Positions 5,860-32,762 of a stretch of 64,000 nt of DNA are shown here, piece by piece; the first letter of the stretch is position 1, and the number at the start of each line of letters is the position of its first letter. The DNA lies in contig NZ_JBQEKA010000005.1 in assembly GCF_052103615.1 (NCBI RefSeq), positions 11,357 through 75,356 of the forward strand, given 5' to 3'. The stretch is from Kerstersia sp. GTDB lineage: Bacteria; Pseudomonadota; Gammaproteobacteria; Burkholderiales; Burkholderiaceae_B. Made by a program: the position numbers and the translations under genes. The notes under the pieces were generated by a model. It saw only the letters and a list, made by a program, of their open reading frames with translations. It did not search any database and was not told the origin of the DNA.

Positions 5860-5886
5860 AAGCCAGGAACATGGCGCGCGGGCAGC

Positions 5887-5919
5887 AAAAAAATGGGCCG
5901 GCATCAGGCCGGCCCATTT
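5887..5919 (-). terminator. Intrinsic terminator between convergent lysR and ssb
   Basis: Perfect 12-bp stem AAATGGGCCGGC/GCCGGCCCATTT with a 5-nt loop and an A-run giving a U tail on the minus strand. Confidence 0.8.
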
Positions 5920-5931
5920 CTGTCTGCGGGA

Positions 5932-6450: not shown

Positions 6451-6522
6451 GCCGTTCTCCTCTACGCACTACATTGAAGGGCGCTATAGTACCAAGTTGG
6501 CCTACGCATCTGTGACTACCGG

Positions 6523-9384
6523 ATGGACGAAATTCGCATACGCGGCGCACGCACCCATAACCTGAAAAACATTTCCCTGGACCTGCCCCGCCACAAGCTG
6601 GTGGTGATGACCGGCGTCTCGGGTTCTGGCAAATCTTCCCTGGCTTTCGACACTTTGTATGCCGAAGGCCAGCGGCGCTATGTCGAAAGCCTGTCGGCCT
6701 ACGCGCGCCAATTCCTGCAACTGATGGACAAGCCTGATGTCGATCTGATCGAGGGCCTGTCCCCCGCCATCGCCATCGAGCAAAAATCCGCCGGCCACAA
6801 CCCGCGATCCACCGTCGGCACGGTAACAGAAATCCACGACTATCTGCGCCTGCTGTATGCCAGAGTTGGCACGCCTTATTGCCCGGAGCACGGACAGCCG
6901 CTGGAGGCGCAAAGCATTGCGCAAATGGTCGATGCCATCCTGGCCATGCCCGAGGAAAGCCGCATCGCCATTCTCGCCCCCGTGGCCCATGACCGCAAGG
7001 GCAGCTTCGAAGCGGAATGTGCCAATCTGCAAGCGCAAGGCTATGTGCGCCTGCGGCTGGATGGCGAGATGACGGATATCGACAGCATGCCGGCGCTGGA
7101 CCCGAATGCCCGCCATAGCCTGGATGTCGTGGTTGACCGGCTGCGGGTGCGCGCCGGTGTGCGCTCGCGCCTGGCGGAAAGCCTGGAAACCGCGCTGTCA
7201 CTGTCGCAGGGCCGCATTCTGGTTCTCGATATGGACAGCAATGCTGAACAGGTCTTTTCCAGCCGCTACGCCTGTCCGGTCTGCAGCCGCGGCCTGACGG
7301 AACTGGAACCGCGCCTGTTCAGCTTCAATAACCCCATGGGTGCCTGCCCCTGCTGCGACGGCCTGGGCCAGGTTGGTGTTTTCGATGCCAAACGGATTGT
7401 CGCTTTCCCCGAGCTAAGTCTGGCCGGTGGCGCCATCAAGGGCTGGGACAGGCGCAATGCCTTCGCCTTCAATATGCTCAACAGCCTGGCAACGCATTAT
7501 GGTTTCGATCTGGAAACCCCGTTTGATGACTTGCCCGAAGACGTCCGCCAGATCGTGCTGCACGGCTCCGGCACCGAGGAAATCGAATTCGCCTACCTGA
7601 ATGAGAAAGGCCGCAGCACGGTACGCAGCCACCCCTTCGAAGGCATCATCCCGAATCTGGAACGGCGCTGGCGCGAAACCGACTCTTCCGCCGTGCGCGA
7701 GGAATTGGAAAAATTCCGCAGCATCCAGACCTGCCCCGATTGCGGCGGCTCGCGCCTGCGCGCAGAGGCCCGCCATGTCCGCATCGGCAACGACATGCCG
7801 CCGGGCGAGCGCCTGGGCCAGGAAACCGGTCTGGCCATTTATGAGGTCGAGGCCATGCCGCTGGCCGCCTGCCAGACCTGGTTCGACAATCTGGCGCTGG
7901 AAGGCGCGCGCCAGGAAATCGCGGCGCGTATTGTCAATGAAATCAGCGCCCGGCTGCGTTTCCTGAATAATGTCGGCCTGGGCTATCTGTCCCTAGATCG
8001 CAGCGCCACCACGATTTCCGGCGGCGAAGCCCAGCGCATCCGCCTGGCCAGCCAGATCGGCTCGGGCCTGACCGGCGTCATGTATGTGCTGGATGAACCG
8101 TCCATCGGCTTGCACCAGCGTGACAATGACCGCCTCATCAGCACGCTCAAGCATTTGCGCGACCTGGGCAATAGCGTCATCGTCGTGGAACATGACGAAG
8201 ACATGATCCGTGAGGCCGACTGGGTCGTGGATATGGGGCCAGGCGCAGGCGAGCACGGCGGCACCGTGACGGCGCAGGGCACACCGGCCGAGATCCAGGC
8301 GCAGCCTGCGTCGCTGACCGGCCAGTACCTCAATGGCACGCGCGCCGTTGCCATTCCGCAACGCCGCAGCGTCGATCCCGACACCCGCTGGCTGGAAATT
8401 TCCGGCTGCACGGGCAACAACCTGAAAAACGTCGATCTGCGCCTGCCTGTGGGCAAGCTGGTCTGCGTTGCCGGGGTGTCAGGCTCGGGCAAATCGACGC
8501 TAGTCAACGACACCCTGGCGCGTGTCGCCGCCATGGCCTTGAACCGCGCCCAGGAAGAATCCGCGCCTTACAGCGCCGTGACCGGCCTGGAGCATTTCGA
8601 CAAAATCATCACGGTTGACCAAAGCCCTATCGGCCGCACGCCACGCAGCAACCCGGCCACCTACACCGGCCTGTTCACCCCTATGCGCGAACTGTTCGCC
8701 GGCGTGCCCGAAGCCCGGGCGCGGGGCTATGACCCCGGCCGTTTCAGTTTCAACGTCAAGGGCGGCCGCTGCGAAGCCTGCCAGGGCGATGGCGTGGTCA
8801 AGGTCGAAATGCACTTCCTGCCGGATATGTATGTGCCTTGCGATACCTGCCACGGAAAACGCTACAACCGGGAAACCCTGGAAATCCGTTACCGGGGCCG
8901 CAATATCAGCGAAGTGCTGGACCTGACGGTGGGGCAGGCGCTGGAATATTTCGACGCGGTCCCGGCCATCGCCCGGCGCCTGCAAACGCTGGCGGACGTC
9001 GGCCTGTCCTACATCCGCCTGGGGCAAAGCGCCACGACCCTGTCAGGCGGCGAAGCCCAGCGCGTCAAGCTTTCGCTGGAACTGGCGCGGCGCGGTACCG
9101 GCAAAACCCTGTATGTCCTGGATGAGCCGACCACCGGCTTGCACTTCCAGGATATCCAGATGCTGCTGCAAGTGCTCAATCAATTGGTGGAAGCGGGCAA
9201 TACCGTCCTGGTGATCGAACACAATCTGGATGTCATCAAGACCGCAGACTGGGTCATAGACATGGGGCCGGAAGGCGGCCAGGGCGGCGGGCAGATCGTT
9301 GCCCAGGGCACACCTGAGTCCATCGCCAGCACGGACAGCCCCACCGCCCCCTATCTGCAGCGTGCGCTTTCCATGGCAATATAG
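6523..9384 (+). CDS. uvrA: Excinuclease ABC subunit A
   Basis: [10 protein letters not shown], two Walker A motifs (GVSGSGKS), Cys zinc fingers, LSGGEAQR; divergent from ssb. Confidence 0.98.
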
Positions 9385-19155: not shown

Positions 19156-20130
19156 ATGTTCCGTTCCGCCCTCATGCTGGCAGCCGCGCTATTGCTCAGC
19201 GGCTGTCTTTCGACCTCGAATATCACCACCATAGATGCCCCTGAAAAACTGCAGGCTATCACTGCCCTGCAAGGGCTGGAACGGGACCGCCAGGCCATCC
19301 TGGCCATGCAGGGCGAATACGAAGTCGGCTTTGCTTTCGATGAAATCGACCCAGCCCCTGGTTATGAGCCCAAGCCGCCCAAGCGCAGCGGCGCTTTCGA
19401 ACTGGTGCTGGTTGAAGAAGACACGGGCAAGAACATCGTCCTGCAGCATCTGCTCGTGCATCGCACACTGGGTTTCGTGATCAAGCACTGGCGCCAGGAT
19501 TGGCACTACGAAGCCCCCTCCCGCCTGGTCTTCACGGATGACCAGACCTGGCGTCTGGAACCCATCCCGGCGGAACAGACGGCAGGCGCCTGGACCCAAT
19601 GCGTGTATGAAGTCAGCGACGCGCCGCGCTACTGCGGCACCGGCAAATGGCGCTATGACAGCGGCGAGCCGGTCTGGACCTCGGACGCCGGCTGGCGCCC
19701 CTTGCCGCGCCGTGAATACAGCACCCGCAACGATTACAACGCCGTCGGCATGGTCAACCGTCACCGCATTACCCGCGACGGCTGGCGCCACGAGCAGGAC
19801 AACCGCAAAGTCATCCGTGAAAACGGCCAGGAAGTTGCCACGCTGGTGCAAGAACATGGCGTCAACACCTACCGTCATATCCGCGGCTTCAACTTCAATA
19901 GCGGCTACCGCTACTGGAATGACAACAGCCGCGCCTACTGGCAGCGTATCCGGGCGGAATGGCAACGCCGGGCCGAACAAAACGGCGGCATCCGCCTGAA
20001 CTATCCGGTCGATGGCATGGACATGATCTGGAATATGTACTGGCAATCGGAAGCCGCGCGCCAGGGCAACCGGGAGGTCGGCAACGAAGAAATCGTGGAA
20101 TTGTTCGAACCCTGGGTGGCCGCGCCCTGA
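19156..20130 (+). CDS. Lipoprotein of unknown function (DUF6607-like)
   Basis: Lipobox LLSG-C; IKHWRQDWHYE, WTQCVYEVSDAPRY and PLPRREY motifs recalled for DUF6607. Confidence 0.65.
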   Translation: MFRSALMLAAALLLSGCLSTSNITTIDAPEKLQAITALQGLERDRQAILAMQGEYEVGFAFDEIDPAPGYEPKPPKRSGAFELVLVEEDTGKNIVLQHLLVHRTLGFVIKHWRQDWHYEAPSRLVFTDDQTWRLEPIPAEQTAGAWTQCVYEVSDAPRYCGTGKWRYDSGEPVWTSDAGWRPLPRREYSTRNDYNAVGMVNRHRITRDGWRHEQDNRKVIRENGQEVATLVQEHGVNTYRHIRGFNFNSGYRYWNDNSRAYWQRIRAEWQRRAEQNGGIRLNYPVDGMDMIWNMYWQSEAARQGNREVGNEEIVELFEPWVAAP

Positions 20131-20224: not shown

Positions 20225-20737
20225 CTAAGGGGTATCGTCCGCGGTGGATGCCTGGCCCGCCGTCCGGCGCGCCAGCATCTCCTGCATGACATCCTGCAGG
20301 GGAATCACCCCTGCCGTCCGTGATTTCCCGGCATGCCCCAGCATATCAGCCAGGGTATGGGCATCCAGCGTGGCCATGAACGCTTGCAGAGCCTGGTGCA
20401 ACAGGCCCTGCAAGCTACAGGAATCTGTCAGCAGGCAGGCCCGATCCGGCTCCTGCGGCCCAAAACAGGCCACCAGCGCCATATCGTCCTCCATGGCCCG
20501 CACCACATCGCCAATACTGATTTCAGCCGGCTGAAGCAGCAACCGGATCCCTCCGCCCTTGCCGCGCAGCGTTTCAATAAAACCTTTGCGGCCTAGCTCG
20601 TGCACCACCTTGACCAGGTGGTTTTCGGAAATGCCATAGAACTCGGCCACGGAAGCAATGGACGTCAAACGGCCGCGCTGCTGTCCCAAGTACATCAGCG
20701 TGCGCAAGGCATAGTCCGTTTTCAGCGTCAATCTCAT
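20225..20737 (-). CDS. nsrR: Rrf2-family Fe-S regulator, NsrR-like
   Basis: MRLTLKTDYALRTL, NHLVKVV, RGKGGGIRL and three Cys (VACF, RACL, SCSL); NsrR boxes in the adjacent spacer. Confidence 0.85.
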   Translation of the reverse strand: MRLTLKTDYALRTLMYLGQQRGRLTSIASVAEFYGISENHLVKVVHELGRKGFIETLRGKGGGIRLLLQPAEISIGDVVRAMEDDMALVACFGPQEPDRACLLTDSCSLQGLLHQALQAFMATLDAHTLADMLGHAGKSRTAGVIPLQDVMQEMLARRTAGQASTADDTP

Positions 20738-20905
20738 TGCATATCCATCAAGCCATCAAGGGCTGTCCTGCCCGCCGCCATGCGGTCCACAGCCATCCAG
20801 CCAGCAAGCATCTGACGGGCAAGCGCGCCGCCAGCAAATTCCAAGGGTACTCAAATCGTCCCGCAGGCGCCAGCGCCGCCCCCGCGATGTCGCGACGCAA
20901 CATCA

Positions 20906-20930
20906 AAAGATGCATTTCACTTGCATCTTT
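20906..20930. promoter_or_regulatory. NsrR box 1
   Basis: AAAGATGCA-TTTCACT-TGCATCTTT, a perfect 9-bp inverted repeat matching the 11-1-11 NsrR consensus AAGATGCATTTnAAATGCATCTT. Confidence 0.85.
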
Positions 20931-20945
20931 AATCGCGAACGCTAT

Positions 20946-20968
20946 AAGATGCATAAAAAATACACCTT
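20946..20968. promoter_or_regulatory. NsrR box 2
   Basis: AAGATGCATAA-A-AAATACACCTT, a second 23-bp match about 40 bp downstream of box 1. Confidence 0.75.
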
Positions 20969-21038
20969 AAAGCATTCAGCGGGCATGACATCAGGTACTG
21001 GCCTGCCGATTTTTACCCAACCGACACAAGGAATCATC

Positions 21039-21464
21039 ATGAGCCACACCCTGGAAGCCTCCCAACTGCTGGGCGCCCTGGAAAACGTCGCGGTCATCTC
21101 CACGACCGACCTGCAAGGGAACATCACCTACGCCAATGACCTGTTCTGCAAGCTGACCGGCTACGCCCGCGAAGAACTGATTGGCCAGCCGCACAGCCTG
21201 GTGCGCCACCCGGCGGTGCCCAAAGCGGTTTACAAGGAAATGTGGGACACCATCAAGGCTGGGCAGATCTGGACCGGCATCATCCCGAACGTCGGCAAGG
21301 GCGGCGGCGTCTATGTTGTGGATACCACGGTGCAACCGCTGTTTGACGATCAAGGCAACATCACGTCGTACATCAGCATCCGCCGCGTCATCAACGATCT
21401 GATGCAAGATTTCGAGTCGGTAGAATTCTCCAAGGAACAATTCGACGAGTACTACGACAAATAA
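21039..21464 (+). CDS. Stand-alone PAS domain protein (Aer/NifL-like, probably flavin-binding)
   Basis: AAGGA SD before ATG 21039; TDLQGNITYANDLFCKLTGYAREELIGQPHSLVRHP...MWDTIKAGQIWTG; no output domain. Confidence 0.85.
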   Translation: MSHTLEASQLLGALENVAVISTTDLQGNITYANDLFCKLTGYAREELIGQPHSLVRHPAVPKAVYKEMWDTIKAGQIWTGIIPNVGKGGGVYVVDTTVQPLFDDQGNITSYISIRRVINDLMQDFESVEFSKEQFDEYYDK

Positions 21465-21469
21465 GCATC

Positions 21470-23014
21470 ATGGCCGCCATCATCGAACACCTGCTGATCG
21501 GCTACGGCTCGGAATCCGGCAATGCCCGCGCACTCGCCCGCCGTCTGGGCGACCTGCCCGCCTTGCAGCCCTATGCGCCACGCGTACAGGCGCTCAACGA
21601 CATCGAGCCCGCCCAACTTCCCGCCGGCACGCTGCTGGCGATCATCTCCAGCTCCTTCGGTGATGGCGACCCGCCAGGCAACGCCGAAAATTTCCTGGCC
21701 CGCGTCCGCCAGGCCGGGCGCCTGGAATCGCTGAATTACGCCATCTTCGGCCTGGGCGATACGGCCTATCCGAATTTCTGCGGCTTCACCAAAACCCTGG
21801 ATCAAGCCCTCACGGAACGCGGCGCCGCCCCCGTCATCCTGCGCGTCGATGCCGACGCCTGCTATGAAGATTTCTTCGAGCGCTGGACACCCGTGCTGCA
21901 GCAAGTGCTGTCGGGCAACTTGCGGGCAGGCCAGCTCTTACGGCTGCAAGTCACCGCCTATGGCGCCCACACGGCCTTTGCCGCACCCATTCTGGAGCGC
22001 CTTCAGCTGAACCAGGGCGCCCCCGGGGCCTGGCATATCCGCCTGGACATCACCGGCAGCGGCATGATTTATCGCGCCGGGGACAATCTCTACGTCATGC
22101 CCGAAAACGACCCGGCGCTGCTGCAAGGCCTGGCCGACTGGTATGGCAACCCCGAAGCCGCCACGGCCCTGGCAGGCAAAGAGTTGCGCCTGCTGGGCAA
22201 AGGCCTGCTGCGTGACCTGGCGCGCCTGTCCGGCAACGAGCGCTTGAAAGAGCTGCTGAAGATCAGCCAGCGCAAGGCTCTGGATGACTACCTCTGGGGC
22301 GCTGACCTGCTGGATCTGCTGCAGGACTTCTGCTCCCCTGAAACCGTGCCGCTGGACGCGCTGCTGGACTGCGCCCTGCCCGCCTGCCTGCCTCGCGCCT
22401 ACTCGATCGCCTCCGCTGGCGGCGACCATATCGACCTGTGCATCCGTGAAGTCGCCCATGAACGCAACGGCCGCCTGCATCGCGGCTGCGCGACCGGCTG
22501 GCTGCTCCGTCATGATGGCCCGGTACGCGTTTTCTGCCGCGCCAACCCCGGCTTCCACCTGCCGCGCGACGCCAGCCTGCCGCTCATACTGGTCGGCACC
22601 GGCACCGGTATCGCCCCATTGATGGGCCTGCTGCGCGAAATGCGCAGCAGCGGCAAGCGGCGCGAAACCTGCCTGATCTTCGGCGAGAAATGCAGCGACA
22701 AGGATTTTCTCTATCACCAGGAATTGCGCGCCATGCTGGATGACGGCACGCTCTCGGACCTCTATACCGCGTTCTCCCGCGATGGCGGCACGAAATACTA
22801 CGTCCAGCACGCCATGGCAGACCAGAGCGGTTACCTGCGCGACATGCTCGCCCAAGGCGCCCATCTCTACCTGTGCGGCAACAAGCGGCACCTGGAACAG
22901 GCCGTGGCCAGCGCCATTGACCACATCATGGAAGGCGTCCCCGGCCTGGCGGACAATGAAACCGGCTGGCAATTGCTGGGACGCACCGGCAGATTGCACC
23001 GGGAGCTTTACTAA
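21470..23014 (+). CDS. Diflavin oxidoreductase (flavodoxin + FNR domains; CysJ/NOS-reductase-like)
   Basis: FMN motifs YGSESGNA, SSFGDGDPPGNA and FGLGDTAY; FAD motif RAYSIAS; NAD(P) motifs GTGTGIAP, AFSRD, YVQH, LYLCG. Confidence 0.88.
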   Translation: MAAIIEHLLIGYGSESGNARALARRLGDLPALQPYAPRVQALNDIEPAQLPAGTLLAIISSSFGDGDPPGNAENFLARVRQAGRLESLNYAIFGLGDTAYPNFCGFTKTLDQALTERGAAPVILRVDADACYEDFFERWTPVLQQVLSGNLRAGQLLRLQVTAYGAHTAFAAPILERLQLNQGAPGAWHIRLDITGSGMIYRAGDNLYVMPENDPALLQGLADWYGNPEAATALAGKELRLLGKGLLRDLARLSGNERLKELLKISQRKALDDYLWGADLLDLLQDFCSPETVPLDALLDCALPACLPRAYSIASAGGDHIDLCIREVAHERNGRLHRGCATGWLLRHDGPVRVFCRANPGFHLPRDASLPLILVGTGTGIAPLMGLLREMRSSGKRRETCLIFGEKCSDKDFLYHQELRAMLDDGTLSDLYTAFSRDGGTKYYVQHAMADQSGYLRDMLAQGAHLYLCGNKRHLEQAVASAIDHIMEGVPGLADNETGWQLLGRTGRLHRELY

Positions 23015-23252
23015 ACCCCCGGACAGCTAGCAGGCCGACAAGCGGCACAGCGGCAAGAGCCGCCATGGACAATCCATTCACCGCGGCAACACCGCGCCGC
23101 CTGGCCCGCTCATGCGGGGGCTTCTTGTCACGGAGCGCCCGCATGACGTTGCCGCCAGCCGTGCCCCTGCTCATCCATACCGGCTCGCGCAACGGAAATT
23201 CGGAACGTTGCCGCCAGCCGGACTGAAAAAAACTGGCCCAGGCGCCCATCTC

Positions 23253-25151: not shown

Positions 25152-25390
25152 ATAGATACGGTACCTATCAGGCCCTCGGGCAGCCATCGTGCCGCCTGGG
25201 GCCTGTGGCCCTATCCGTGAATGCAGGAACAGCCTAATATCGGCACGCTGAGGCAGTGTTTATCAGGCAGGCCCGCGGCACACGCCACAGCAACAATATG
25301 CTTGCCGCGCGCAGGCTCCGCGCCGCATGGCGCGCGTCCATGCAGATCCTGCAAAAACAGCAGGGCGCGCATTCGTATCAAGAGGACTGC

Positions 25391-25915
25391 GTGAACAACG
25401 GGAAAAAGATCATCATCATCGCTGGCCCAAATGGGGCAGGTAAAACGACCTTCGCCCGTTCTTTCCTGCCTGCCGAAGCCGGGGTGTTGCGCTTCATCAA
25501 CGCGGATCTTATCGCTGCGGGGCTCTCACCCTTTGAACCAGAAGCCGCTGCCATCAAGGCAGGCCGTCTCATGCTCGAAGAAGTGAAGCAATCCGTCGCC
25601 GATGGCGCCAGCTTCGCGCTGGAAACGACACTATCGGGCCATGGTTATCTGCGCCACATCCGGCGCTGGCAAACGCTGGGCTACCGCGTCAGCCTGTATT
25701 TTCTCAGTCTGTCCGATGCCGACACAGCAGTCGCCCGTGTGGCAGAAAGAGTCAGGCAAGGCGGCCACCATATTCCTGAACCCGTCATTCGCAGACGCTT
25801 TATTGCTGGCATGAAAAACTTTATCCAGCACTATCGCCAGCAAGTCGATGACTGGGCGCTGTATGATAATTCCGGTAGCCATCCTATATTATTGGAATGG
25901 GGAGAAAATTCATGA
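25391..25915 (+). CDS. Zeta-toxin-like P-loop ATPase (COG4185 type)
   Basis: GTG start after AGAGGA; IAGPNGAGKTT, NADLIA, ETTLSG, RVAERVRQGGH, YDNSG. Confidence 0.85.
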   Translation: MNNGKKIIIIAGPNGAGKTTFARSFLPAEAGVLRFINADLIAAGLSPFEPEAAAIKAGRLMLEEVKQSVADGASFALETTLSGHGYLRHIRRWQTLGYRVSLYFLSLSDADTAVARVAERVRQGGHHIPEPVIRRRFIAGMKNFIQHYRQQVDDWALYDNSGSHPILLEWGENS

Positions 25916-26100
25916 GCCACGCAGACATCTCGACCGCCAAGAACCCGGACTTGCGGGCATCCATGGCTGCCTTGCAACGTGCGGCCGAAGCCGCCAGGCA
26001 ACTCGCCATACAAACCAATACCGCCATTGTTCTGGTGGAACACGGCAAGCTGGTCAAAGTCTCTGCCGAGCAGTTGCGCCGGCAAACGCGCCAGCGCTGA
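25912..26100 (+). CDS. Small helical protein translationally coupled to the ATPase (possible TA partner)
   Basis: 62 aa, ATGA overlap with the ATPase stop, GGGGAG SD. Confidence 0.65.
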   Translation: MSHADISTAKNPDLRASMAALQRAAEAARQLAIQTNTAIVLVEHGKLVKVSAEQLRRQTRQR

Positions 26101-26682
26101 AACCGCCTTCCGCCGTCAAGACCCCTCACTGACCCATCAAATAAACCGGCCAGGCCTGCCCGCCTTCCCGCATGGCCTTGCGCGTGCCCAGGCACGTGTC
26201 CCGCCAATCTCCTGGCTGCTCTGGCACGCCGCTGCCCGATTCAGCCTCATTCCGCACTAGCATGACGTGATGCGGCACAAGCGTGCCCAAGGCACACTTG
26301 CGCCCCGCCCGCCCCTCCCCGGATAGAAAGACCATCCACGCGCCATGGCAGGCCTATGACGCGGTCAAACATCGTTTCCGTCACCTCTGGCCCCATCCGC
26401 GTCCTGCAAACCGCGCCAATATATTAATGCGTGTCATTATCGGAACCATTTTTAGCTAATATAGGTATCTCGCCCTGAGAACCTTCGCCTAAACCGGCCC
26501 CGAACTCACCAGTCCGTAACGAATAAGTCACCGCGCAAGCAGCTGAGCACAACAAGGCAGCACCGGACTGCCTGGTTCTAGCACCACGCACCAATATTTC
26601 GCTCAGCACTATCAAAGAAGCACGCAAGAACACCGTATGACAGCAAATAAATTAGTGCAGTTAAACAGTCACCATCAGCGAT

Positions 26683-26716
26683 ACATATACAAATATAAAC
26701 CCGCCCTTCTCATTAG
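26683..26716 (+). repeat. Relic copy of the 5' end of the 29548 gene
   Basis: 31/34 nt identical to 29551-29584. Confidence 0.85.
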
Positions 26717-26757
26717 GGTTCGAGAGATATTCAACACTCGCCTATCCCATGTAAAAC

Positions 26758-27078
26758 ATGAAAGCAGACATACTAATCGCTATATACCTTTTAAAGCCCA
26801 ATGAGGGCGGCCGAAAAACGGACATAGAAGGCGACATTTTTAAATGCCCGATTTTTGTCAACCAAACCGGATTTGATTGCAGACTGATTCTTCACGGCAA
26901 AAAAATGATCCTGGGGACCAACCATACTCTCCCTGCCGCCTTTCTTGACCGGGATAGCGCACTTTCAAAAATAAAAACAGGCACAAAAATCTCATTGTGG
27001 GAAGGAAAAACAATTGGCTATGGAGAAGTCCTGGAAATATACGGCCAGCAGCCTCAGCAGTTCCCCATACCAGTCTAA
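26758..27078 (+). CDS. Stand-alone EF-Tu domain III-like protein
   Basis: IYLLKPNEGGRKT...MILGTN...WEGKTIGYGEVLEI parallels EF-Tu VYILSKDEGGRHT...MVMPGDN...REGGRTVGAGVVAKV. Confidence 0.65.
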   Translation: MKADILIAIYLLKPNEGGRKTDIEGDIFKCPIFVNQTGFDCRLILHGKKMILGTNHTLPAAFLDRDSALSKIKTGTKISLWEGKTIGYGEVLEIYGQQPQQFPIPV

Positions 27079-27142
27079 GCTCTTTCCAAGCACGCCAGAA
27101 CTCTGAAAGATCCATCAACGGAACAACCTGAGCGCAACATTA

Positions 27143-27667
27143 ATGTTTTCATCCAGAACATTACACTCTCTTACAGATCTTGAAAGAGAGCTTCAAAAAG
27201 AACATAAACACTGGCTGGTCCTTGGGGCTTCCCATGAAGCCACCATCGAATTTCATCAGATCCAAACATGCAGAAAAGGCATGAATTTCGGAATAGGCGT
27301 CGCCATTGCAATCAGTGGCGCCAGACCAAAATGCATCACAAGCACCAACCAAAAAAACATTCTCATTGGATTTGACTCATTTATCTCAAAAGTACCGCTA
27401 CGACCCTCACCCAACTCTTTACCTCAATATGAAATCAAAAAAATAGATGGCGTTTTTTTTGATTTCATACCAATAAAAGATCAAATCTGCGTCATCCACG
27501 AAATCGGAGCATATCTGATGACGGAAGATCTATAAATCATTTGGAGCATATCCACTGACATTTTATCCACCTGGACCTTGGATAAAGAAAAAGAAACTCT
27601 ATTACTAACAGAACTGTACTTTTCAAAACCAATATTAGTATCCATTCACACAGGAAAGAAAACCTAA
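27143..27667 (+). pseudogene. Hypothetical immunity-like gene interrupted by an in-frame TAA at 27533-27535
   Basis: The frame continues past the stop as IIWSISTDILSTWTLDKEKETLLLTELYFSKPILVSIHTGKKT* to 27667. Confidence 0.65.
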
Positions 27668-27789
27668 CATCTCCATCTATACCACGCCGACTAAGCAACC
27701 ATCGGCTTCTGTTACTTAACAAAACCCCAAACACCCAGTCATTTCAGACGTTTCAAAAATAACCAACGCACTAAAAGCCAAAATGTAGC

Positions 27790-27882
27790 GGACATGTCAT
27801 CGTCGATGGCATCCGGCTAGATTACAGCGCCTTCAAATTCCCCGATGGAGCAATTAACATTGAACGCTTCACTCATCCCTAA
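27790..27882 (+). pseudogene. Probable polymorphic toxin C-terminal relic
   Basis: GHVIVDGIRLDYSAFKFPDGAINIERFTHP* ends just before the core of the DUF6984-like ORF. Confidence 0.45.
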
Positions 27883-28243
27883 AAGCAAGCTTCTTAGAAA
27901 ACTGCGAGAAGAAGAAAAAAGACTAATCACAGCCATGCTTAGCGAAAAAATCATTGATCTGACTAACGCAGAAATTGATTCAGCCCTAGTCATAGACCTG
28001 AACGATGGGAATATGGGCAGCATAAGATTCATCTATGACACAGACTCTACCTATCAAGCCCAAATTGCGAGCGCTGAGTATGCAGATAGTGATGGAGCAA
28101 TAGTCAGCATTGCGATCAACACTAACACCCAAGGCAATTTATATGAAATTGATTTTTGGAAAACAGACTTTTCAGCCCTACTAAAATACCCCACGCCAGA
28201 GAAACTTATCAGACACAAAGAACAAGGCGCATCAAGCCAATGA
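27845..28243 (+). CDS. DUF6984-like putative immunity protein
   Basis: RKLREEEKRLI...DGNMGSIRF...DSDG...LYEIDFWKTDFSAL..YP; the true start is probably near 27893. Confidence 0.65.
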   Translation: MEQLTLNASLIPKSKLLRKLREEEKRLITAMLSEKIIDLTNAEIDSALVIDLNDGNMGSIRFIYDTDSTYQAQIASAEYADSDGAIVSIAINTNTQGNLYEIDFWKTDFSALLKYPTPEKLIRHKEQGASSQ

Positions 28244-28522
28244 TATACATGAATCAGCCGCACGTTCCAAACAGGCGCCCAGGCAACTCTTATCAAGAAC
28301 CTTTGCAAAACCTCGCCCGACAAGAGAACCGAGCAGACGTTATCAGCAAATCAAAATCAGAAGATAGTTCGGCCAGCAACCGAAGCAATCAAGCAGTGAG
28401 ACAAAACATGAACCATATTCTCAATAACTTCACGGATCGGAACAATTAAAGCGCTACATTCCCCGCCGCATTTATCCAACCAAGAATATCCAAGCTATTC
28501 CTGTCGAATTTGGGAAATAAAG

Positions 28523-28900
28523 ATGAAAGTAAAATGCGTACGCTTCCTTGACGAAAATGGAAACATCAAATCTGACTCAGCATGGCTAACGATTGGACAG
28601 ACCTACCACGTCATGGAAATCTACATTAGCAGCTCTAGAGCGTGCCGCTATAGAATAATTTCAAATCACAAAGATCCCGGGTTTTTTTCTATGGGATTGC
28701 ATCCCGCCGAATGCTTCGAAATCACCAGCGACATCATCCCTTCCAACTGGAAAATGAAGATCCACAAGATGTCAGCCATTGAAATATCTCCAGCACGCTG
28801 GCAAGAGAACAATTTTTTAGAAGATTTTTATGATGCAGACCCCGCCGTTTACCCTATCTTTGAAGCGGAACGCGACATTATTATGCGCGAAGACCCTTGA
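28523..28900 (+). CDS. Hypothetical protein, immunity-like
   Basis: 125 aa with WLTIGQTY and PARWQENNFLEDFYDADP; lies in the AT-rich array. Confidence 0.7.
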   Translation: MKVKCVRFLDENGNIKSDSAWLTIGQTYHVMEIYISSSRACRYRIISNHKDPGFFSMGLHPAECFEITSDIIPSNWKMKIHKMSAIEISPARWQENNFLEDFYDADPAVYPIFEAERDIIMREDP

Positions 28901-29026
28901 GCCAATTGAGAGCACAAAAAGACTAATAAAGCCAATGATATAAAGAAATCATCGCTTTGATTTCATTTTACAACCAAGGATCGCATTGCCAAAACAATCC
29001 CCATTTACATATCTGACGGATGAATA

Positions 29027-29494
29027 ATGAGCGAAACAATAGAACTTACATTTGAAAACGTTCCGGAAACGTTATTTGAAAAACCCATCCAAACCATCAC
29101 ACTCCATGCCAAACCCGAAAAAATATTCACAAGTGAAGATGGCGACGCAATTTACATTGCAGGCGAAAGCATATCCGAAACAATAAGAAGAATCAAACCA
29201 CCAACAGCATTATTTTTTATTTTTGAAAGAGTAAGAATCGGAACCATAGAAATAAAAAAACCATTAATAAGAATTTTATTATTAGAAAAAGAGAATGAAC
29301 TTAACCTGATATTCAATGACAATGACATAGCAGGAGACTCCGAAAAATCCACAATTCAGCAACTTGCAATAGCAACCAAGCAACTGGCATTTGAAAACAA
29401 CATAGAAATTTACTATTGTGGCCTAGAGCCAGCCAATGACACAAACACCCAGTTTTTTTCAAACTCCAAAACCGGCATAGGCGGCCCATCATAA
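29027..29494 (+). CDS. Hypothetical protein, immunity-like
   Basis: 155 aa, acidic, with a C-terminal YYCGLEPAND..TQFF motif. Confidence 0.7.
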   Translation: MSETIELTFENVPETLFEKPIQTITLHAKPEKIFTSEDGDAIYIAGESISETIRRIKPPTALFFIFERVRIGTIEIKKPLIRILLLEKENELNLIFNDNDIAGDSEKSTIQQLAIATKQLAFENNIEIYYCGLEPANDTNTQFFSNSKTGIGGPS

Positions 29495-29547
29495 CCGCTC
29501 TTAAAACACCCACAACAAAACGGTCTTCACACTATCATTCATTGAGC

Positions 29548-30120
29548 ATGACTTATACAAACATAAGCCCGCCCTTCTCATTAGATTTTCGAGAAATGCC
29601 AAAGACAGAACTCAAGAACTACGCCAAGTGGTTCCATGAAATCCTGCCAGTCCGAATCAAAGAATTGGAAAGTTTTGTACAAAGCACGGCTGGATTCGAA
29701 AAATGGCAGGCTGACTTCACCCCTGACTCCTTGAACCAGCTCGACAGTTGGTTCGAGGAACAGATCGAAACCCGGACAATGACCCAAGATGAAATCGAAG
29801 AAACAAGAAGAAAATTAGTGATTCCAATAGAAATTGGCACAACCGAACTCTCAAACCGGACATTTTCCTTGGCGATAGACATCGGGATGTATTTTGGACA
29901 AACATTACTGAAAGGAAATCCAAAATTGAAATGGGGCCAAAATTTAAAATCAAAAAGACACATTGACTATGGACAGCCCATCCTCATTGGCCAAGGCTCC
30001 ATCCCGTGCAACCCAGTAGGCCTCTTAATCACGCGAGCCTATGCAATAACTAGAAAATCAAAAAACAAGAAAGAATTATTGGAAACTTATAAAATCTGGG
30101 CAAACATTCTGAGTACATGA
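29548..30120 (+). CDS. Hypothetical protein, immunity-like
   Basis: 190 aa with SLAIDIGMYFG and DYGQP motifs. Confidence 0.7.
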   Translation: MTYTNISPPFSLDFREMPKTELKNYAKWFHEILPVRIKELESFVQSTAGFEKWQADFTPDSLNQLDSWFEEQIETRTMTQDEIEETRRKLVIPIEIGTTELSNRTFSLAIDIGMYFGQTLLKGNPKLKWGQNLKSKRHIDYGQPILIGQGSIPCNPVGLLITRAYAITRKSKNKKELLETYKIWANILST

Positions 30121-30196
30121 TGATGTCCAAAAAAACCGAGCAGACAAGCTAAAACCAGAAACCAGACCAACACACCAAACCCAATACCAAACAGAT

Positions 30197-30535
30197 ATGA
30201 GTCAAACCAGGTCAGATCAAGTTGATGCGATATTAAAAATCGGAAAATCAATGGAAACCGAAGGAATAAGAAATTGGGCCTTAACCCCCAAAAAAGCCAT
30301 CACAGCAATTCGCTCGCTAGAAAAAATGAAAATTGCCATTCTAGGTGGCGATGTATATGAAATCATTAACAACCGTTTCACATCCACATATGAGAACTGG
30401 TATTGCAATAAAGCACAAGACGAGGATGACAATCAGTATCTATTTAGGAGCATCCATATGGCAAGACAATACATCCTCAACCATCAATCGAATAGCAAAA
30501 TCATCTATTTCTGCCTGGTGCCCGACGTTCGATAA
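30197..30535 (+). CDS. Immunity protein, Imm40-like
   Basis: GKSM..EGIRNWA...AILGGDVY...YENWY...YLFRS..MARQYI matches the recalled Imm40 pattern. Confidence 0.72.
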   Translation: MSQTRSDQVDAILKIGKSMETEGIRNWALTPKKAITAIRSLEKMKIAILGGDVYEIINNRFTSTYENWYCNKAQDEDDNQYLFRSIHMARQYILNHQSNSKIIYFCLVPDVR

Positions 30536-30561
30536 AATAAATCTTTGCCCCCCAAAAAACC

Positions 30562-31029
30562 ATGACCCCTTTTGAAATCATACAAGAGCATCATTTCCTA
30601 GATTGGGTCACACTACTGGCAGGCTTAGAACGAGGATGGTGCACAAAGGAAGATGTCGTTAAGTATGCTGAGAACCAGCCATAAAAAAGCAATAGCGAAA
30701 TAGATACTCGGCTGATAGGTATCATCAACTCAGAACAAACTTCATATCTTGAACTTATTTCACAAATTCAAGATTTTCTTGACCACCCTGAAATTGAAAA
30801 AAACGAGAGCAACTCCGCATTATTAAAATGGAGGTTTGCATTCATCACGTCTTTACTAGAAAAAGAAACTTCAAAGCAAGAAAAAATAGCCCTGCTCCAG
30901 GAAATATATAGTCAATTTGGGTACCCTGAAGACATGATATCTTGCAGCGTTTACCACAACGACGGCATTGACCCTCTAGTCGCTGCGCAGACGGTTGTTG
31001 ATCTGTTACGCAAGAACCTCGAAAAATAA
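30562..31029 (+). pseudogene. DUF2247 (Imm38)-like immunity gene with a premature TAA at 30682-30684
   Basis: Not in the ORF track. MTPFEIIQEHHFLDWVTLLAGLERGWCTKEDVVKYAENQP*KSN...KWRFAF...EIYSQFGYPEDM...LEK*. Confidence 0.75.
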
Positions 31030-31248
31030 TCCTAATTTTTCAGGCAAATAACTTCAAAATTATTTGAAAACCTGTCACCAGCAGCACACGGTTGTCCGGA
31101 TAGGCACGGCAGAATCGTCAGGTGCAGGCACCCGGCGGTGCTGGCGGAAGACTGATATTTTTCCGAAAATACGATGCCACTCATGACATGAAGGCTTCCC
31201 GTCCGCCTGTCAGGCCGATTGGCAGCGGGTCGTTGATATAATGATTAT

Positions 31249-31600
31249 TTGATCAGCCTGCGCGGCGCGCCGACCTGTCTGTGTCGCGGCAGCTGCCCTG
31301 AGTTCACCCACATCCTGCTCTTGCGATGGGCGGCAGATGACCAGGCGGCAGATATACATCCGGCAACGGTACTGATCAAACCCGAAGCGCCCAGGCAGAA
31401 CAGCACCACGGGAACGCAACCCATAAAAGCTGCGACACCGGCTTCGGGATAAGTGCCTCTCAAGGGAATGGTTCCGCAGCCGCTTCGGGGCGCGGGTCAT
31501 CTTGAGGACTGGCTGCGCCGTCACCATGAGGTTCGGTCTCACGCCAGTCTGAATGACCTGACACCCTGGCAGTTCGTGGAAGCGCAGAGCCAGGATTGCA
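31249..31600 (+). mobile_element. Degraded IS3-family transposase C-terminal fragment
   Basis: Frameshifted pieces RGAP..GSCPEFT, LIKPEAPRQNS, LRDKCLSREWFRSRFGARVI and EDWLRRHHEVRSHASLNDLTPWQF parallel the IS3 OrfB motifs DNGPEF, IQPGKPQQN, LRDECL..EWF and RPHSSL..LTP. Confidence 0.85.
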
Positions 31601-31726
31601 CCGCCATGGCCAGCGCCCCTCATACCCATGACAGGAAATTCCAGGCAGGGGAACGGCTATCGTTCGTTGCTTCGCCTGGCCTACAAGCCGTAGTAAATAA
31701 AGCTGCTGAAACAGCGTTTTGAGAAA

Positions 31727-31882
31727 ATGATGGATGATTGGGTCCCTTTAGCCTTAGGTACGATCAAGTTCATTGTGCTGGGCACATGCTGTTTTTTCGC
31801 CATTAAGTCGCATCGCGATGGCGCAAAAAAAGAGCGTGAGGAAGAGCTGGAAAGAGAGAGAAAGATGAAGGAATCGTCGTAG
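31727..31882 (+). CDS. Small single-pass membrane protein (51 aa)
   Basis: MMDDWVPLALGTIKFIVLGTCCFFAIKSHRDGAKKEREEELERERKMKESS; below the ORF track cutoff. Confidence 0.6.
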   Translation: MMDDWVPLALGTIKFIVLGTCCFFAIKSHRDGAKKEREEELERERKMKESS

Positions 31883-31958
31883 GCCAACGCCACACGATGT
31901 CATCCAGGGCGCTCAGAAATACCGTGTTTCACGACGCTTGCCCTGCACGTCCTGGCAC

Positions 31959-32762
31959 TCACATCAAACGCGACAACAACTCCTGACGGTAGCGAATGCC
32001 CATGCGGGCAAATGCCCGATTGCGATAGGTTTTGGTCGTCGATACCGACAGAGACAAATCTGCCGCAATGCCGTCGTATGTCCACCCCAAGGCCAGCCGG
32101 ACGCAAACGTCGCGCTCACGCGGGCTCAAGGTCGGGCAATAGCGCGCCAGACGCTGGCGCATGGCATCCATGGACGGCAGTCCCGCCGGTGCCTCCAGCG
32201 CCAGATGGCGGGTCAGGCAGGCACGCACGACAGGGACTAGCCCGCCCAATATGTCGATTTCACGCTCACTGAAACCGCTCTGGCCTGCATGCCGATAGAA
32301 ATTGATGGCCAGCAGTTCATTATCCTGCTCGACATTGACCACAGAAACACGCTCGCGCATCCCATGCCGGCGATAAATACGGTCGCTATGCGCACGCGGC
32401 AAATCATGCGCATGTATGTGGGATAGCACCGCGTCGCCCGGGATGGCCATGCCGTGCATAACGCCTAGTGACGCATCCTGCTGGTACAAGCCATCGGCAT
32501 AGGCTGCAAAACAATCCTGCGTGATATCCAGCGCCCGGTACGCGCCTGACACATGCAGGCGCGGAGGACGATCCCGATACAAGCGATAGACCGACCAGGA
32601 CGCTGCCGGCATGGTCAAGTTGAAAGCAGCCAGTGCTGCCTTGCCAAACTCCGCGCCTCCAATGCCCGCCACCATCTCTGCCACGGTATGCAAATGCTGG
32701 CGCAGACCTGTCTCCCGGCCTGATGCCGAATCCTGTATCTGGGCTAGGTTCCAGTATCTCAT
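31959..32762 (-). CDS. LuxR-type HTH regulator with an N-terminal GAF-like sensor
   Basis: GGAGG SD before ATG 32762; LSPRERDV...GWTYDGIAADLSLSVSTTKTYRNRAFARMGI. Confidence 0.88.
   Translation of the reverse strand: MRYWNLAQIQDSASGRETGLRQHLHTVAEMVAGIGGAEFGKAALAAFNLTMPAASWSVYRLYRDRPPRLHVSGAYRALDITQDCFAAYADGLYQQDASLGVMHGMAIPGDAVLSHIHAHDLPRAHSDRIYRRHGMRERVSVVNVEQDNELLAINFYRHAGQSGFSEREIDILGGLVPVVRACLTRHLALEAPAGLPSMDAMRQRLARYCPTLSPRERDVCVRLALGWTYDGIAADLSLSVSTTKTYRNRAFARMGIRYRQELLSRLM

What the first reader, a model, noticed from the sequence alone, without database searches (positions are those of the whole stretch)
20225..23014. NsrR-controlled stand-alone PAS + diflavin reductase: candidate new nitrosative-stress module
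Seen in sequence: nsrR is divergent from a two-gene operon preceded by two strong NsrR boxes. The targets are none of the classic ones (hmp, ytfE, hcp-hcr, nnrS). One is a 141-aa output-less Aer/NifL-like PAS protein. The other is a CysJ/NOS-reductase-like FMN+FAD+NAD(P)H protein with no CysI or NOS oxygenase partner nearby. Inference: the reductase passes electrons to the PAS cofactor, in analogy to the globin+FNR design of flavohemoglobin, for NO detoxification, redox repair or signalling.
Basis: partly seen in the sequence, partly recalled or inferred. Interest (0 to 1): 0.75.

Follow-up and report, generated by a model that had tools for sequence, protein, structure and literature searches.

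The report
NO-regulated PAS-flavoprotein plus diflavin reductase pair
A very conserved, uncharacterised pair of genes (a small sensor-like flavin protein and an NADPH-driven electron-donating enzyme) sits behind binding sites for a nitric-oxide-sensing repressor, and in other bacteria behind sites for other nitric-oxide regulators, so it is probably an undescribed part of the bacterial defence against nitric oxide.

Summary
The window holds an NsrR-like Rrf2 gene (20225-20737, minus strand) divergent from a tightly spaced two-gene operon. The operon encodes a 141-aa output-less PAS protein (21039-21464) and a 514-aa FMN+FAD+NADPH diflavin reductase (21470-23014). Two NsrR boxes precede it; they are the only such sites in 64 kb.

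The PAS protein is of the flavin-binding Aer/MmoS/NifL type, not a haem PAS. The reductase is a CysJ/CPR-type enzyme but fails the tests for true CysJ.

The pair is a fixed module. About 443 species genomes encode the PAS protein. In all of the roughly 80 loci examined where the sequence extends far enough, the reductase follows directly. The module is wired to different nitrogen-oxide regulators:
- NsrR boxes in beta-, some alpha-proteobacteria and Enterobacterales.
- Three NorR-type sites plus a sigma-54-like promoter in some Pseudomonas.
- An FNR/DNR-like box in Stenotrophomonas.

In 7 of the 80 loci and on a Rhizobium plasmid, a group III truncated haemoglobin is the next gene.

The nitrosative-stress link is therefore well supported by inference. 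Electron transfer from reductase to PAS is plausible but untested, and the final chemistry is unknown. I found no published characterisation.

The parts
20225..20737 (-). nsrR-like Rrf2 repressor gene (170 aa), divergent from the operon
   Evidence: It hits Pfam Rrf2 at 2.2e-35. NCBIfam NsrR is the top hit at 127.6 bits but falls below the 182 cut-off, and RirA scores almost the same. The best solved relative is S. coelicolor NsrR 5n07; Cys91, Cys101, Cys107 and Asp8 align with its cluster ligands.
20838..20875 (.). Conserved non-coding block of unknown role between nsrR and the boxes
   Evidence: It is nearly invariant between the window, K. gyiorum and K. similis. It matches no recognised motif. 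It could be the nsrR promoter or leader.
20907..20929 (.). NsrR box 1, AAGATGCATTTCACTTGCATCTT
   Evidence: It matches 20 of 22 consensus positions and is the only match with up to 3 mismatches in 64 kb, against 0 expected. It has one mismatch to the published core (PMC1274295) and is conserved in Kerstersia. It overlaps the -35-like hexamer.
20921..20948 (+). Inferred sigma-70 promoter: TTGCAT (20921-20926), 16-nt spacer, TATAAG (20943-20948)
   Evidence: I read this from the sequence. Both hexamers are conserved in Kerstersia. It is below the threshold of the promoter scan, which found none, so it is inference only.
20946..20968 (.). NsrR box 2, AAGATGCATAAAAAATACACCTT
   Evidence: It matches 18 of 22 consensus positions and is the second-best score in the window. 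It has one mismatch to the published core and is conserved in Kerstersia at the same 39-nt spacing. It overlaps the -10-like hexamer.
21039..21464 (+). Stand-alone PAS protein (141 aa), predicted flavin-binding, with N-cap helix and a conserved acidic C-terminal helix
   Evidence: It has PAS folds only. The best solved relatives are MmoS 3ewk, Aer 8dik and NifL 2gj3. The AF2 model has pLDDT 79, and Foldseek ranks Aer, NifL, MmoS and then LOV domains on top. H52, N84, R115, M68 and G27 correspond to the Aer FAD contacts and are invariant in a 14-sequence alignment. An AAGGAA ribosome-binding site lies at 21028-21033.
21470..23014 (+). NADPH-dependent diflavin (FMN+FAD) reductase, 514 aa
   Evidence: It has Flavodoxin_1, FAD_binding_1 and NAD_binding_1. 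The best solved relatives are CysJ 6efv, CPR, NOS reductase and BM3. The AF2 model has pLDDT 91.9, with CysJ and CPR as top Foldseek hits. Motifs read in the sequence: GSESGNA and GLGDTAY (FMN), RAYSIAS (FAD), GTGTGIAP and FSRD (NADPH), and a C-terminal Tyr.
23105..23128 (+). Weak terminator-like hairpin after the operon
   Evidence: From the terminator scan. It has a 5-bp GC stem and a poor T run, and the count does not exceed that in shuffles. Low confidence.

Best explanation
This is a self-contained operon, repressed by NsrR and so switched on by NO. It encodes a two-protein, NADPH-driven flavin electron-transfer system.

The proposed chain is as follows. The 514-aa enzyme takes a hydride from NADPH onto FAD and passes single electrons through FMN, as CysJ, CPR and NOS reductases do. 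Its dedicated partner is the 141-aa PAS protein. That protein binds a flavin (most likely FAD) in an Aer/MmoS-type pocket and is reduced by the FMN domain. The pair works in the nitrosative-stress response. The PAS flavoprotein acts as the terminal one-electron carrier or gate. It hands electrons on to, or controls their flow to, an NO-consuming or NO-damaged target. In the lineages where a group III truncated haemoglobin is the third gene, that target is probably the globin.

Shown here:
- gene order and boxes;
- domain content and cofactor-binding motifs;
- strict pairing of the two genes;
- regulator sites in relatives.

Inferred:
- NO induction;
- flavin binding by the PAS protein;
- electron transfer from reductase to PAS;
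- the downstream chemistry.
For: (1) Regulation in the window. Two outlier NsrR boxes overlap the -35- and -10-like hexamers of the inferred promoter. The adjacent Rrf2 protein keeps the ScNsrR cluster ligands.

(2) Regulon switching in relatives.
- NsrR boxes lie upstream of the PAS gene in 22 loci. These include Erwinia, Pantoea, Pectobacterium and Serratia, where nsrR is not adjacent. Nearly all boxes found in those 10-kb loci lie in that upstream region.
- Six Pseudomonas loci have three tandem GT-N7-AC sites plus TGGCAY-N5-YTGAA, which is the NorR architecture (PMC1274295).
- 33 of 42 Stenotrophomonas loci have TTGAY-N4-RTCAA.
- A Rhizobium plasmid copy and a cyanobacterial copy have Rrf2 neighbours.

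(3) Obligate pairing. The reductase follows the PAS gene directly in every locus where the sequence extends far enough: about 80 from the genome scan plus 9 other contexts. The median gap is 5 nt, and 29 of 79 loci have a 4-nt overlap. No other neighbour recurs except the regulator and the globin.

(4) The PAS flavin pocket is conserved (PMC9668731).

(5) The reductase has complete FMN, FAD and NADPH motifs and a confident three-domain model.

(6) A group III truncated haemoglobin (trHb) is the third gene in 7 loci and on the plasmid.

(7) Analogy from established knowledge: NO-detoxifying proteins usually come with a dedicated reductase (Hcp-Hcr, NorV-NorW, the FNR domain of Hmp). The Aer FADox/semiquinone couple is -290 mV (PMC9668731). 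From my own knowledge, the CysJ-type FMN hydroquinone couple is about -330 mV, so it could reduce such a flavin.
Against: - No expression data under NO were obtainable. The public RNA runs were assembled contigs only.
- Cofactor binding is predicted, not shown. The RRK stretch after the conserved Asn in Aer, NifL and MmoS is replaced here by VGKGGG, and the Trp of the Aer 'YW' is Val. FAD versus FMN, or even a different ligand, therefore stays open.
- Both the PAS protein and the FMN domain are net acidic by my count from the sequence. That differs from the usual acidic-FMN to basic-partner docking.
- Most loci, including this window, have no globin in the operon.
- A flavin alone has no known efficient NO-reducing chemistry.
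- The NCBIfam NsrR model is not passed (127.6 against a cut-off of 182), and RirA scores nearly the same.
- The P. fluorescens-group, Methylococcales and Lautropia loci show none of the three NO-regulator motifs.
Confidence: 0.5

Rival explanations
1. This is a signalling module. The PAS flavoprotein would be a 'short' redox, O2 or NO sensor, like short LOV proteins or a detached Aer PAS domain. The reductase would only poise its flavin against the NADPH pool. The output would be a protein-protein interaction through the conserved C-terminal helix, not catalysis.
For: - All close relatives of the PAS domain are sensors: Aer, MmoS, NifL and LOV.
- The PAS protein is far more conserved (74-93% identity) than the reductase (41-87%) across the same loci. 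That fits a protein with several binding partners.
- The C-terminal helix is conserved but modelled with low confidence (pLDDT 44-52), as expected for a segment that docks on something else.
Against: - No conserved signalling partner (kinase, MCP, GGDEF or transcription factor) lies near the pair in any lineage.
- A dedicated 514-aa NADPH reductase is an expensive way to poise a sensor.
Confidence: 0.22
2. The reductase is the real effector and the PAS protein is only its regulatory subunit. The reductase would be the native electron donor of haem or iron proteins encoded elsewhere, such as a group III truncated haemoglobin or other globins, or would serve ferric or Fe-S repair. The PAS protein would switch it on or off according to redox state or O2.
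For: - A group III trHb lies directly downstream in 7 of 80 loci and on a Rhizobium plasmid, there with a ferredoxin.
- Diflavin reductases classically serve haem proteins.
- Native reductases are known for only a few NO-dioxygenase globins, and the role of Ctb is unresolved (PMC3820574).
Against: - The globin is absent from the operon in most lineages and from this 64-kb window.
- The flavin pocket of the PAS protein is intact, so it is likely redox-active itself.
- This rival overlaps with the best explanation and differs only in whether electrons pass through the PAS flavin.
Confidence: 0.18
3. The module is not NO-related. The Rrf2 regulator would be an iron, Fe-S or redox sensor (RirA-, IscR- or RsrR-like), and the pair would serve general redox or sulfur metabolism, for example as a CysJ paralogue for a distant CysI.
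For: - The regulator scores below the NsrR equivalog cut-off, and RirA scores almost equally.
- Databases name the reductase 'sulfite reductase flavoprotein'.
Against: - The boxes match the NsrR motif specifically.
- In Enterobacterales the same motif precedes the pair.
- NorR-type and FNR/DNR-type sites replace it in lineages that lack NsrR boxes.
- The reductase fails four CysJ criteria.
Confidence: 0.07

Closest known systems
Two-component NO-detoxification systems with a dedicated reductase (Hcp-Hcr, NorV-NorW; flavohaemoglobin Hmp as the fused form)
   Same: - A small redox protein is encoded next to its own NAD(P)H-dependent reductase.
- The pair is placed under NsrR, NorR or DNR-type control, and the regulator differs between lineages (PMC1274295).
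   Different: - The partner here is a PAS-fold, probably flavin-only, protein with no metal or haem site.
- The reductase is a diflavin CPR/CysJ-type enzyme rather than a single-flavin FNR- or rubredoxin-reductase-type one.
- No catalytic activity is known.
FAD-binding PAS sensor domains of Aer, MmoS and NifL
   Same: - 44-50% identity to the Aer PAS domain over the fold.
- The same flavin contacts (His stacking on the ring, Asn to N3/O4, Arg near N5), an N-cap and a C-terminal helix (PMC9668731).
   Different: - Stand-alone, with no HAMP, kinase or other output domain.
- VGKGGG replaces the RRK loop.
- Always encoded with a reductase.
- Extreme conservation: the whole family falls in one 50%-identity cluster.
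CysJ (sulfite reductase flavoprotein) and other diflavin reductases (CPR, NOS reductase, BM3 reductase)
   Same: - The same three-domain architecture, cofactor motifs and C-terminal aromatic residue.
- Best sequence and structural matches.
   Different: - No octamerisation domain.
- Below the CysJ equivalog cut-off.
- Val500 is replaced by Gln.
- No cysI partner nearby.
- The partner gene encodes a PAS protein.
Campylobacter jejuni Ctb (group III truncated haemoglobin, NO-inducible through NssR)
   Same: Homologues (E 6.6e-20 to 2ig3) are encoded right after the reductase in Vandammella, Lampropedia, Lautropia, a Comamonadaceae MAG and a Rhizobium plasmid, behind NsrR-type boxes or next to Rrf2 genes.
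   Different: - Absent from this window.
- In Campylobacter no PAS-reductase pair is known to accompany Ctb (my own knowledge, not tested here).

Membership tests
NsrR (NO-sensing Rrf2 repressor) | Rrf2 winged-helix domain | tested here: met
   Pfam Rrf2 hit at 2.2e-35 over residues 4-133.
NsrR (NO-sensing Rrf2 repressor) | Three Cys plus Asp8 ligands of the [4Fe-4S] cluster | tested here: met
   Cys91, Cys101, Cys107 and Asp8 align with the Cys triplet and Asp8 of S. coelicolor NsrR 5n07. The identity of those residues as ligands is from my own knowledge.
NsrR (NO-sensing Rrf2 repressor) | Passes the curated NsrR equivalog model | tested here: not met
   NF008240 scores 127.6 bits against a cut-off of 182. 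RirA NF008886 scores 124.7. The model is built on enterobacterial NsrR, so divergence in a beta-proteobacterium is expected, but the test is failed.
NsrR (NO-sensing Rrf2 repressor) | Operator with the NsrR motif gATGyAT-N5-ATrCATc next to the gene | tested here: met
   Two sites, each with one mismatch; they are the only such sites in 64 kb (PMC1274295).
NsrR (NO-sensing Rrf2 repressor) | Release from DNA on exposure to NO | not testable with these tools
   This needs EMSA or reporter assays.
Flavin (FAD)-binding PAS domain, Aer/MmoS/NifL type | PAS fold closest to the flavin-binding members | tested here: met
   phmmer gives MmoS 2.6e-37, Aer 2.2e-29 and NifL 1.1e-17. Foldseek ranks Aer, NifL and MmoS in the top 6.
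Flavin (FAD)-binding PAS domain, Aer/MmoS/NifL type | Flavin-contact residues (Aer H53, N85, R115, M69; Gly at position 28) | tested here: met
   H52, N84, R115, M68 and G27 are aligned and invariant in 14 diverse family members. The contacts are taken from PMC9668731.
Flavin (FAD)-binding PAS domain, Aer/MmoS/NifL type | Actually binds FAD | not testable with these tools
   This needs purification and spectroscopy. The loop after N84 differs (VGKGGG in place of RRK), so FAD versus FMN is open.
LOV photoreceptor | Photoactive Cys in the GxNCRFLQ motif | tested here: not met
   The aligned position is His52 in GQPHSLVRH. LOV domains are only weaker matches (1e-9 or worse).
Haem-binding PAS (FixL/DOS/Aer2 type) | Proximal His on the Falpha helix; similarity to haem-PAS structures | tested here: not met
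   Helix 62-73 (PKAVYKEMWDTIK) has no His. No haem-PAS structure appears among the 60 listed sequence matches or the top 50 fold matches.
Diflavin reductase (CPR/CysJ/NOS-reductase superfamily) | Flavodoxin-like FMN domain + FAD domain + NADPH domain, with their motifs | tested here: met
   Three Pfam domains, the motifs read in the sequence (alignment), and an AF2 model with pLDDT 91.9 that matches CysJ and CPR over its full length.
CysJ (assimilatory sulfite reductase flavoprotein) | N-terminal octamerisation domain | tested here: not met
   The match to TIGR01931 starts at model position 61 and protein residue 8, so only about 7 residues precede the flavodoxin domain.
CysJ (assimilatory sulfite reductase flavoprotein) | Passes the curated cysJ equivalog models | tested here: not met
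   TIGR01931 scores 281 against a cut-off of 668. NF008197 scores 213 against 838.
CysJ (assimilatory sulfite reductase flavoprotein) | CysI-binding residues Phe496 and Val500 (PMC11947256) | tested here: inconclusive
   DFLYQVEW aligns with DFLYHQEL here. Phe is kept, but from my own knowledge the DFLY stretch is shared with other diflavin reductases, so this is not CysJ-specific. Val500 is Gln.
CysJ (assimilatory sulfite reductase flavoprotein) | Encoded with cysI | tested here: not met
   No sulfite or nitrite reductase haemoprotein is among the examined neighbours in the window. None recurred among conserved neighbours in the 80 related loci.
Flavohaemoglobin-type NO dioxygenase (globin + reductase) | A globin partner | tested here: not met
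   There is no globin in the window. A group III trHb is adjacent in 7 of 80 related loci and on one plasmid, so the feature is met only in some relatives.

The most novel reading that the evidence does not exclude
The PAS flavoprotein would itself be a new kind of NO-reactive enzyme with no metal or haem. The diflavin reductase would load it one electron at a time to the flavin radical state that Aer-type pockets stabilise. That radical would then react directly with NO, or with an NO-derived species. This would make the pair a fourth, flavin-only route of bacterial NO detoxification beside Hmp, NorVW and Hcp.
Probability: 0.1. Interest if true: 0.9.

Novelty: new variant of a known kind. Interest (0 to 1): 0.68.

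Why it matters
- The known NO-stress regulons are thought to be largely catalogued (hmp, norVW, hcp-hcr, ytfE, nnrS). This module is compact, extremely conserved and laterally mobile, and is present in roughly 440 sampled species. These include Serratia, Stenotrophomonas, Pectobacterium and Pseudomonas. It appears to belong to three of those regulons, yet I found no published function for it.
- It would be the first case of a PAS flavoprotein with its own dedicated NADPH reductase. That bears on the open question of how Aer- and NifL-type PAS flavins are reduced in cells.
- The link to group III truncated haemoglobins points to a candidate native reductase for a globin class whose electron donor and function are unresolved (PMC3820574).
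- The pair is small and soluble, so the hypothesis can be tested directly in vitro.

Tried and rejected
- **Literature.** Nine full-text searches combined NsrR, NorR, FhpR, PAS, diflavin, sulfite reductase flavoprotein, truncated haemoglobin and Serratia. None found a paper describing this pair. The Rodionov 2005 regulon tables do not list it. The A. baumannii haemoglobin paper that came up is unrelated.
- **Fusion proteins.** The exhaustive representative search gave no Rosetta-stone clue. Multi-PAS sensors dominate the list, and the whole family collapses to one 143-aa representative.
- **Expression evidence.**
  - The window comes from metagenomes only, with no RNA runs.
  - Runs found with locus L018 were assembled contigs, several probably DNA, and are useless for induction. 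One metatranscriptome contig spans the 3' end of the PAS gene and the whole reductase gene, which fits co-transcription.
- **Promoter scan.** It found no sigma-70 promoter at its threshold. The promoter I give is inferred from conservation.
- **Complex modelling.** I considered modelling a PAS-linker-reductase fusion with a paired alignment.
- **Pseudomonas fluorescens-group loci.** I found no recognisable NO-regulator motif. The PAS gene there follows a glycine-zipper lipoprotein gene.
- **Rejected identities.** A LOV photoreceptor, a haem PAS and true CysJ are all rejected (see the membership tests).


Full report
**1. What is in the window**

ORF listing and direct reading of 19.5-21.5 kb show three genes:
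- a 170-aa gene on the minus strand (20225-20737);
- after a 301-bp intergenic region, a 141-aa ORF from the ATG at 21039 to 21464;
- five bases later, a 514-aa ORF (21470-23014).

Family assignments:
- The first gene is an Rrf2 regulator by Pfam.
- The second contains PAS folds only.
- The third has Flavodoxin_1 + FAD_binding_1 + NAD_binding_1.
- For the regulator, NCBIfam ranks NsrR first (127.6 bits, below the 182 cut-off) with RirA almost equal.
- The regulator's best solved relative is S. coelicolor NsrR. Cys91, Cys101, Cys107 and Asp8 align with that protein's Cys triplet and Asp8.

The intergenic region holds two NsrR-type sites: AAGATGCATTTCACTTGCATCTT (20907-20929) and AAGATGCATAAAAAATACACCTT (20946-20968).
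- Against a 22-position consensus they score 20 and 18. The rest of the 64 kb reaches 15 once and otherwise 13 or less. Shuffles give no match with up to 3 mismatches.
- Each site has one mismatch to the published core gATGyAT-N5-ATrCATc (PMC1274295).
- They overlap a TTGCAT-16 nt-TATAAG pair that I take to be the promoter. The scan tool does not call it. The hexamers and both boxes are conserved islands in K. gyiorum and K. similis.

The neighbours are housekeeping genes: uvrA, aroB, aroK, a PBP1A-type penicillin-binding protein, cyaY, lysA, a DUF6607 gene, yihA, hemB and a zeta-toxin-like gene. No CysI, NOS oxygenase or classical NO gene is among them.

**2. The two proteins**

The PAS protein:
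- Its closest solved relatives are the FAD-binding PAS domains of MmoS (2.6e-37), Aer (2.2e-29) and NifL (1.1e-17). LOV domains come far behind.
- An AlphaFold model (pLDDT 79) gives the same ranking by fold.
- The residues that contact FAD in the Aer crystal structure are present. His53 stacks on the ring, Asn85 bonds to N3/O4, Arg115 sits over N5, and Met69 and Gly28 complete the set (PMC9668731). Here they are His52, Asn84, Arg115, Met68 and Gly27, all invariant in 14 diverse family members.
- The LOV cysteine position is His. The Falpha helix has no His for haem. A flavin cofactor is therefore the well-supported prediction.
- FAD versus FMN stays open, because the RRK loop of Aer, NifL and MmoS is VGKGGG here.
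- The protein has an N-cap helix and a conserved, acidic C-terminal helix that is modelled with low confidence.

The reductase:
- It aligns over its full length with CysJ, CPR, NOS reductase and BM3 reductase.
- It carries the FMN, FAD and NADPH motifs and a C-terminal Tyr.
- It folds with pLDDT 91.9 into a model whose best structural matches are CysJ and CPR.
- It is not CysJ proper. It has no octamerisation domain. It scores 281 against a cut-off of 668 on the cysJ equivalog model. It has Gln where CysJ has the CysI-contact Val500 (PMC11947256). It has no cysI neighbour.

**3. The pair is a fixed, widespread module**

- The PAS protein has hundreds of near-relatives at 75-93% identity in beta-, gamma- and alpha-proteobacteria. 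In a library clustered at 50% identity the whole family is represented by a single protein.
- A scan of one genome per species found 443 genomes with a relative. I examined the best 80 loci.
- In every one where the sequence reaches far enough, the reductase follows on the same strand. The median gap is 5 nt, and 29 of 79 loci have a 4-nt overlap.
- The same holds for nine further contexts: Serratia, Stenotrophomonas, Pseudomonas, Epibacterium, an Osedax symbiont, a cyanobacterial MAG, a Rhizobium plasmid and others.
- Clustering all neighbouring ORFs showed that nothing else recurs across genera except an Rrf2 gene (14 loci, 9 genera) and a globin.
- The PAS protein is much more conserved (74-93%) than the reductase (41-87%) across the same loci.
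- High identity across classes suggests lateral spread. The PAS protein is 88% identical between this beta-proteobacterium and the alpha-proteobacterium Pseudochelatococcus. A Serratia allele also lacks exactly the 2.16-kb module.

**4. Regulation in relatives: the strongest argument for an NO role**

NsrR boxes (at least 16 of 22 positions) lie 80-170 nt upstream of the PAS gene in the following:
- all loci with an adjacent Rrf2 gene;
- Erwinia, Pantoea, Pectobacterium and Serratia, where nsrR is elsewhere.

In those 10-kb loci almost every box found is the one in front of the PAS gene. The Rhizobium plasmid copy has AAGATGTATTGAAAATGTATCTT.

Stenotrophomonas and Pseudomonas loci have no such box anywhere.
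- Of 42 Stenotrophomonas loci, 33 carry a TTGAY-N4-RTCAA box of the FNR/DNR type, and 38 carry a palindrome CTGCGAC-N5-GYCGYA.
- Six Pseudomonas loci carry three tandem GT-N7-AC sites (GTCAT.ATGAC-like, 18-26 nt apart). They lie 50-100 nt upstream of a TGGCAY-N5-YTGAA element.
- That is the published NorR/sigma-54 architecture (PMC1274295; examples), except that the -12 element reads GA rather than GC.

Rodionov et al. documented this pattern for hmp, hcp, dnrN and nnrS: the same genes sit under different nitrogen-oxide regulators in different lineages. By the same reasoning this pair belongs to the nitrosative-stress response.

This is inference from sites. No expression data were available to me. 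Some lineages show none of these motifs: the P. fluorescens group, Methylococcales and Lautropia.

**5. The globin link**

- In Vandammella (2 loci), a Comamonadaceae MAG, Lampropedia (3) and Lautropia, a 140-155-aa gene follows the reductase on the same strand.
- It is a group III truncated haemoglobin: E 6.6e-20 to C. jejuni Ctb 2ig3, and Pfam Bac_globin above its threshold.
- A more distant copy of the module (PAS 66% identical) on a Rhizobium megaplasmid has the same arrangement. RefSeq annotates that gene as 'group III truncated hemoglobin'. A ferredoxin gene and a convergent Rrf2 gene follow it.
- Ctb is NO-inducible in Campylobacter. [quoted passage not shown]
- No such globin is in the present window.

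**6. How it most likely works**

Shown:
- an operon of two genes behind two NsrR operators;
- a complete NADPH-FAD-FMN reductase;
- a PAS protein with an intact Aer-type flavin pocket;
- obligate pairing of the two genes;
- NO-regulator sites in relatives.

Inferred:
- NO inactivates NsrR and the operon is derepressed.
- The reductase passes single electrons from its FMN to the PAS flavin. The Aer couple is -290 mV (PMC9668731), and a CysJ-type FMN hydroquinone is more reducing (my own knowledge).
- The reduced PAS flavoprotein is a carrier or gate towards an NO-consuming or NO-damaged target. That target is a group III globin where one is encoded alongside.

I put this at about 0.5. The main rivals keep the same first steps but differ downstream:
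- a pure sensor with a poising reductase (0.22);
- a reductase that serves haem or iron clients directly, with the PAS protein as its regulatory subunit (0.18).

A non-NO role (an iron or redox Rrf2 regulator, or a CysJ paralogue) is unlikely (0.07).

Points against a simple docking model:
- Both the PAS protein and the FMN domain are net acidic.
- Flavin-only NO chemistry has no precedent.

**7. Comparison with the known, and novelty**

- Functionally, the nearest known things are the paired NO systems Hcp-Hcr and NorV-NorW, and the fused Hmp.
- By descent, the parts belong to the Aer/MmoS/NifL flavin-PAS group and to the diflavin reductase superfamily. The reductase is not CysJ itself.
- I found no paper that describes the pair. 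Regulon databases that I cannot query may list it as a predicted target.
- I rate it a new variant of a known kind: a dedicated reductase plus a small redox partner under NO control, with an unprecedented PAS-flavoprotein partner.
- It is worth bench work. It is widespread, present in opportunistic and plant pathogens, and small and soluble. It also bears on two open questions: who reduces PAS flavins, and who reduces group III globins.

Noticed in passing
window 26000-32000: A low-GC island (41-47% GC against about 62% elsewhere) with few long ORFs and no tRNA gene. It lies just after a zeta-toxin-like kinase ORF (25256-25915). It is probably horizontally acquired DNA.
   Followed up: no
window 20838-20875: A non-coding block (TCCAAGGGTACTCAAATC...CAGGCGCCAGCGCC) is nearly invariant between the window, K. 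gyiorum and K. similis. It lies between nsrR and the NsrR boxes and matches no motif I know.
   Followed up: partly
L018 4806-6968 (Serratia ureilytica locus): One assembled contig of a public run joins 4806 to 6968 with 37 other bases in between. That is an allele lacking exactly the PAS-reductase module and its NsrR box, so the module behaves as a discrete insertion/deletion cassette in Serratia.
   Followed up: no
L012, L013, L020, L054, L058, L062, L079 (about 7000-7550 in the full-length loci); L087 9187-9648: A group III truncated haemoglobin gene lies directly downstream of the reductase in Lampropedia, Lautropia, Vandammella and a Comamonadaceae MAG. On a Rhizobium plasmid a ferredoxin FdxA gene follows it.
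   Followed up: yes
Stenotrophomonas loci, e.g. L015 about 4880-4930: Besides the FNR/DNR-like box, a palindrome CTGCGAC-N5-GYCGYA is conserved upstream of the PAS gene in 38 of 42 Stenotrophomonas loci. Its regulator is unknown.
   Followed up: partly
L050 and L057: Assemblies labelled Bacillus subtilis SK7B5 and Nocardiopsis yanglingensis A18 carry loci whose PAS protein is 76-78% identical to the window's, in the range of the Stenotrophomonas loci. L050 also aligns with the Stenotrophomonas upstream region. These contigs are probably contaminants.
   Followed up: no
L089 165-3555 and about 3890; L074 about 4860: In an Osedax symbiont the pair is divergent from a MarR-family gene and a cydABX (cytochrome bd) operon, and is preceded by TTGTTGCATATAAAATACAACAA, which is NsrR-like. 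A Granulosicoccaceae MAG has a perfect TGTGA-N6-TCACA palindrome (CRP/HcpR type) upstream.
   Followed up: partly
window 19156-20130: A DUF6607 protein gene (324 aa, with what I read as a signal peptide) lies next to nsrR on the other side. It is not conserved next to the module in other genera.
   Followed up: no
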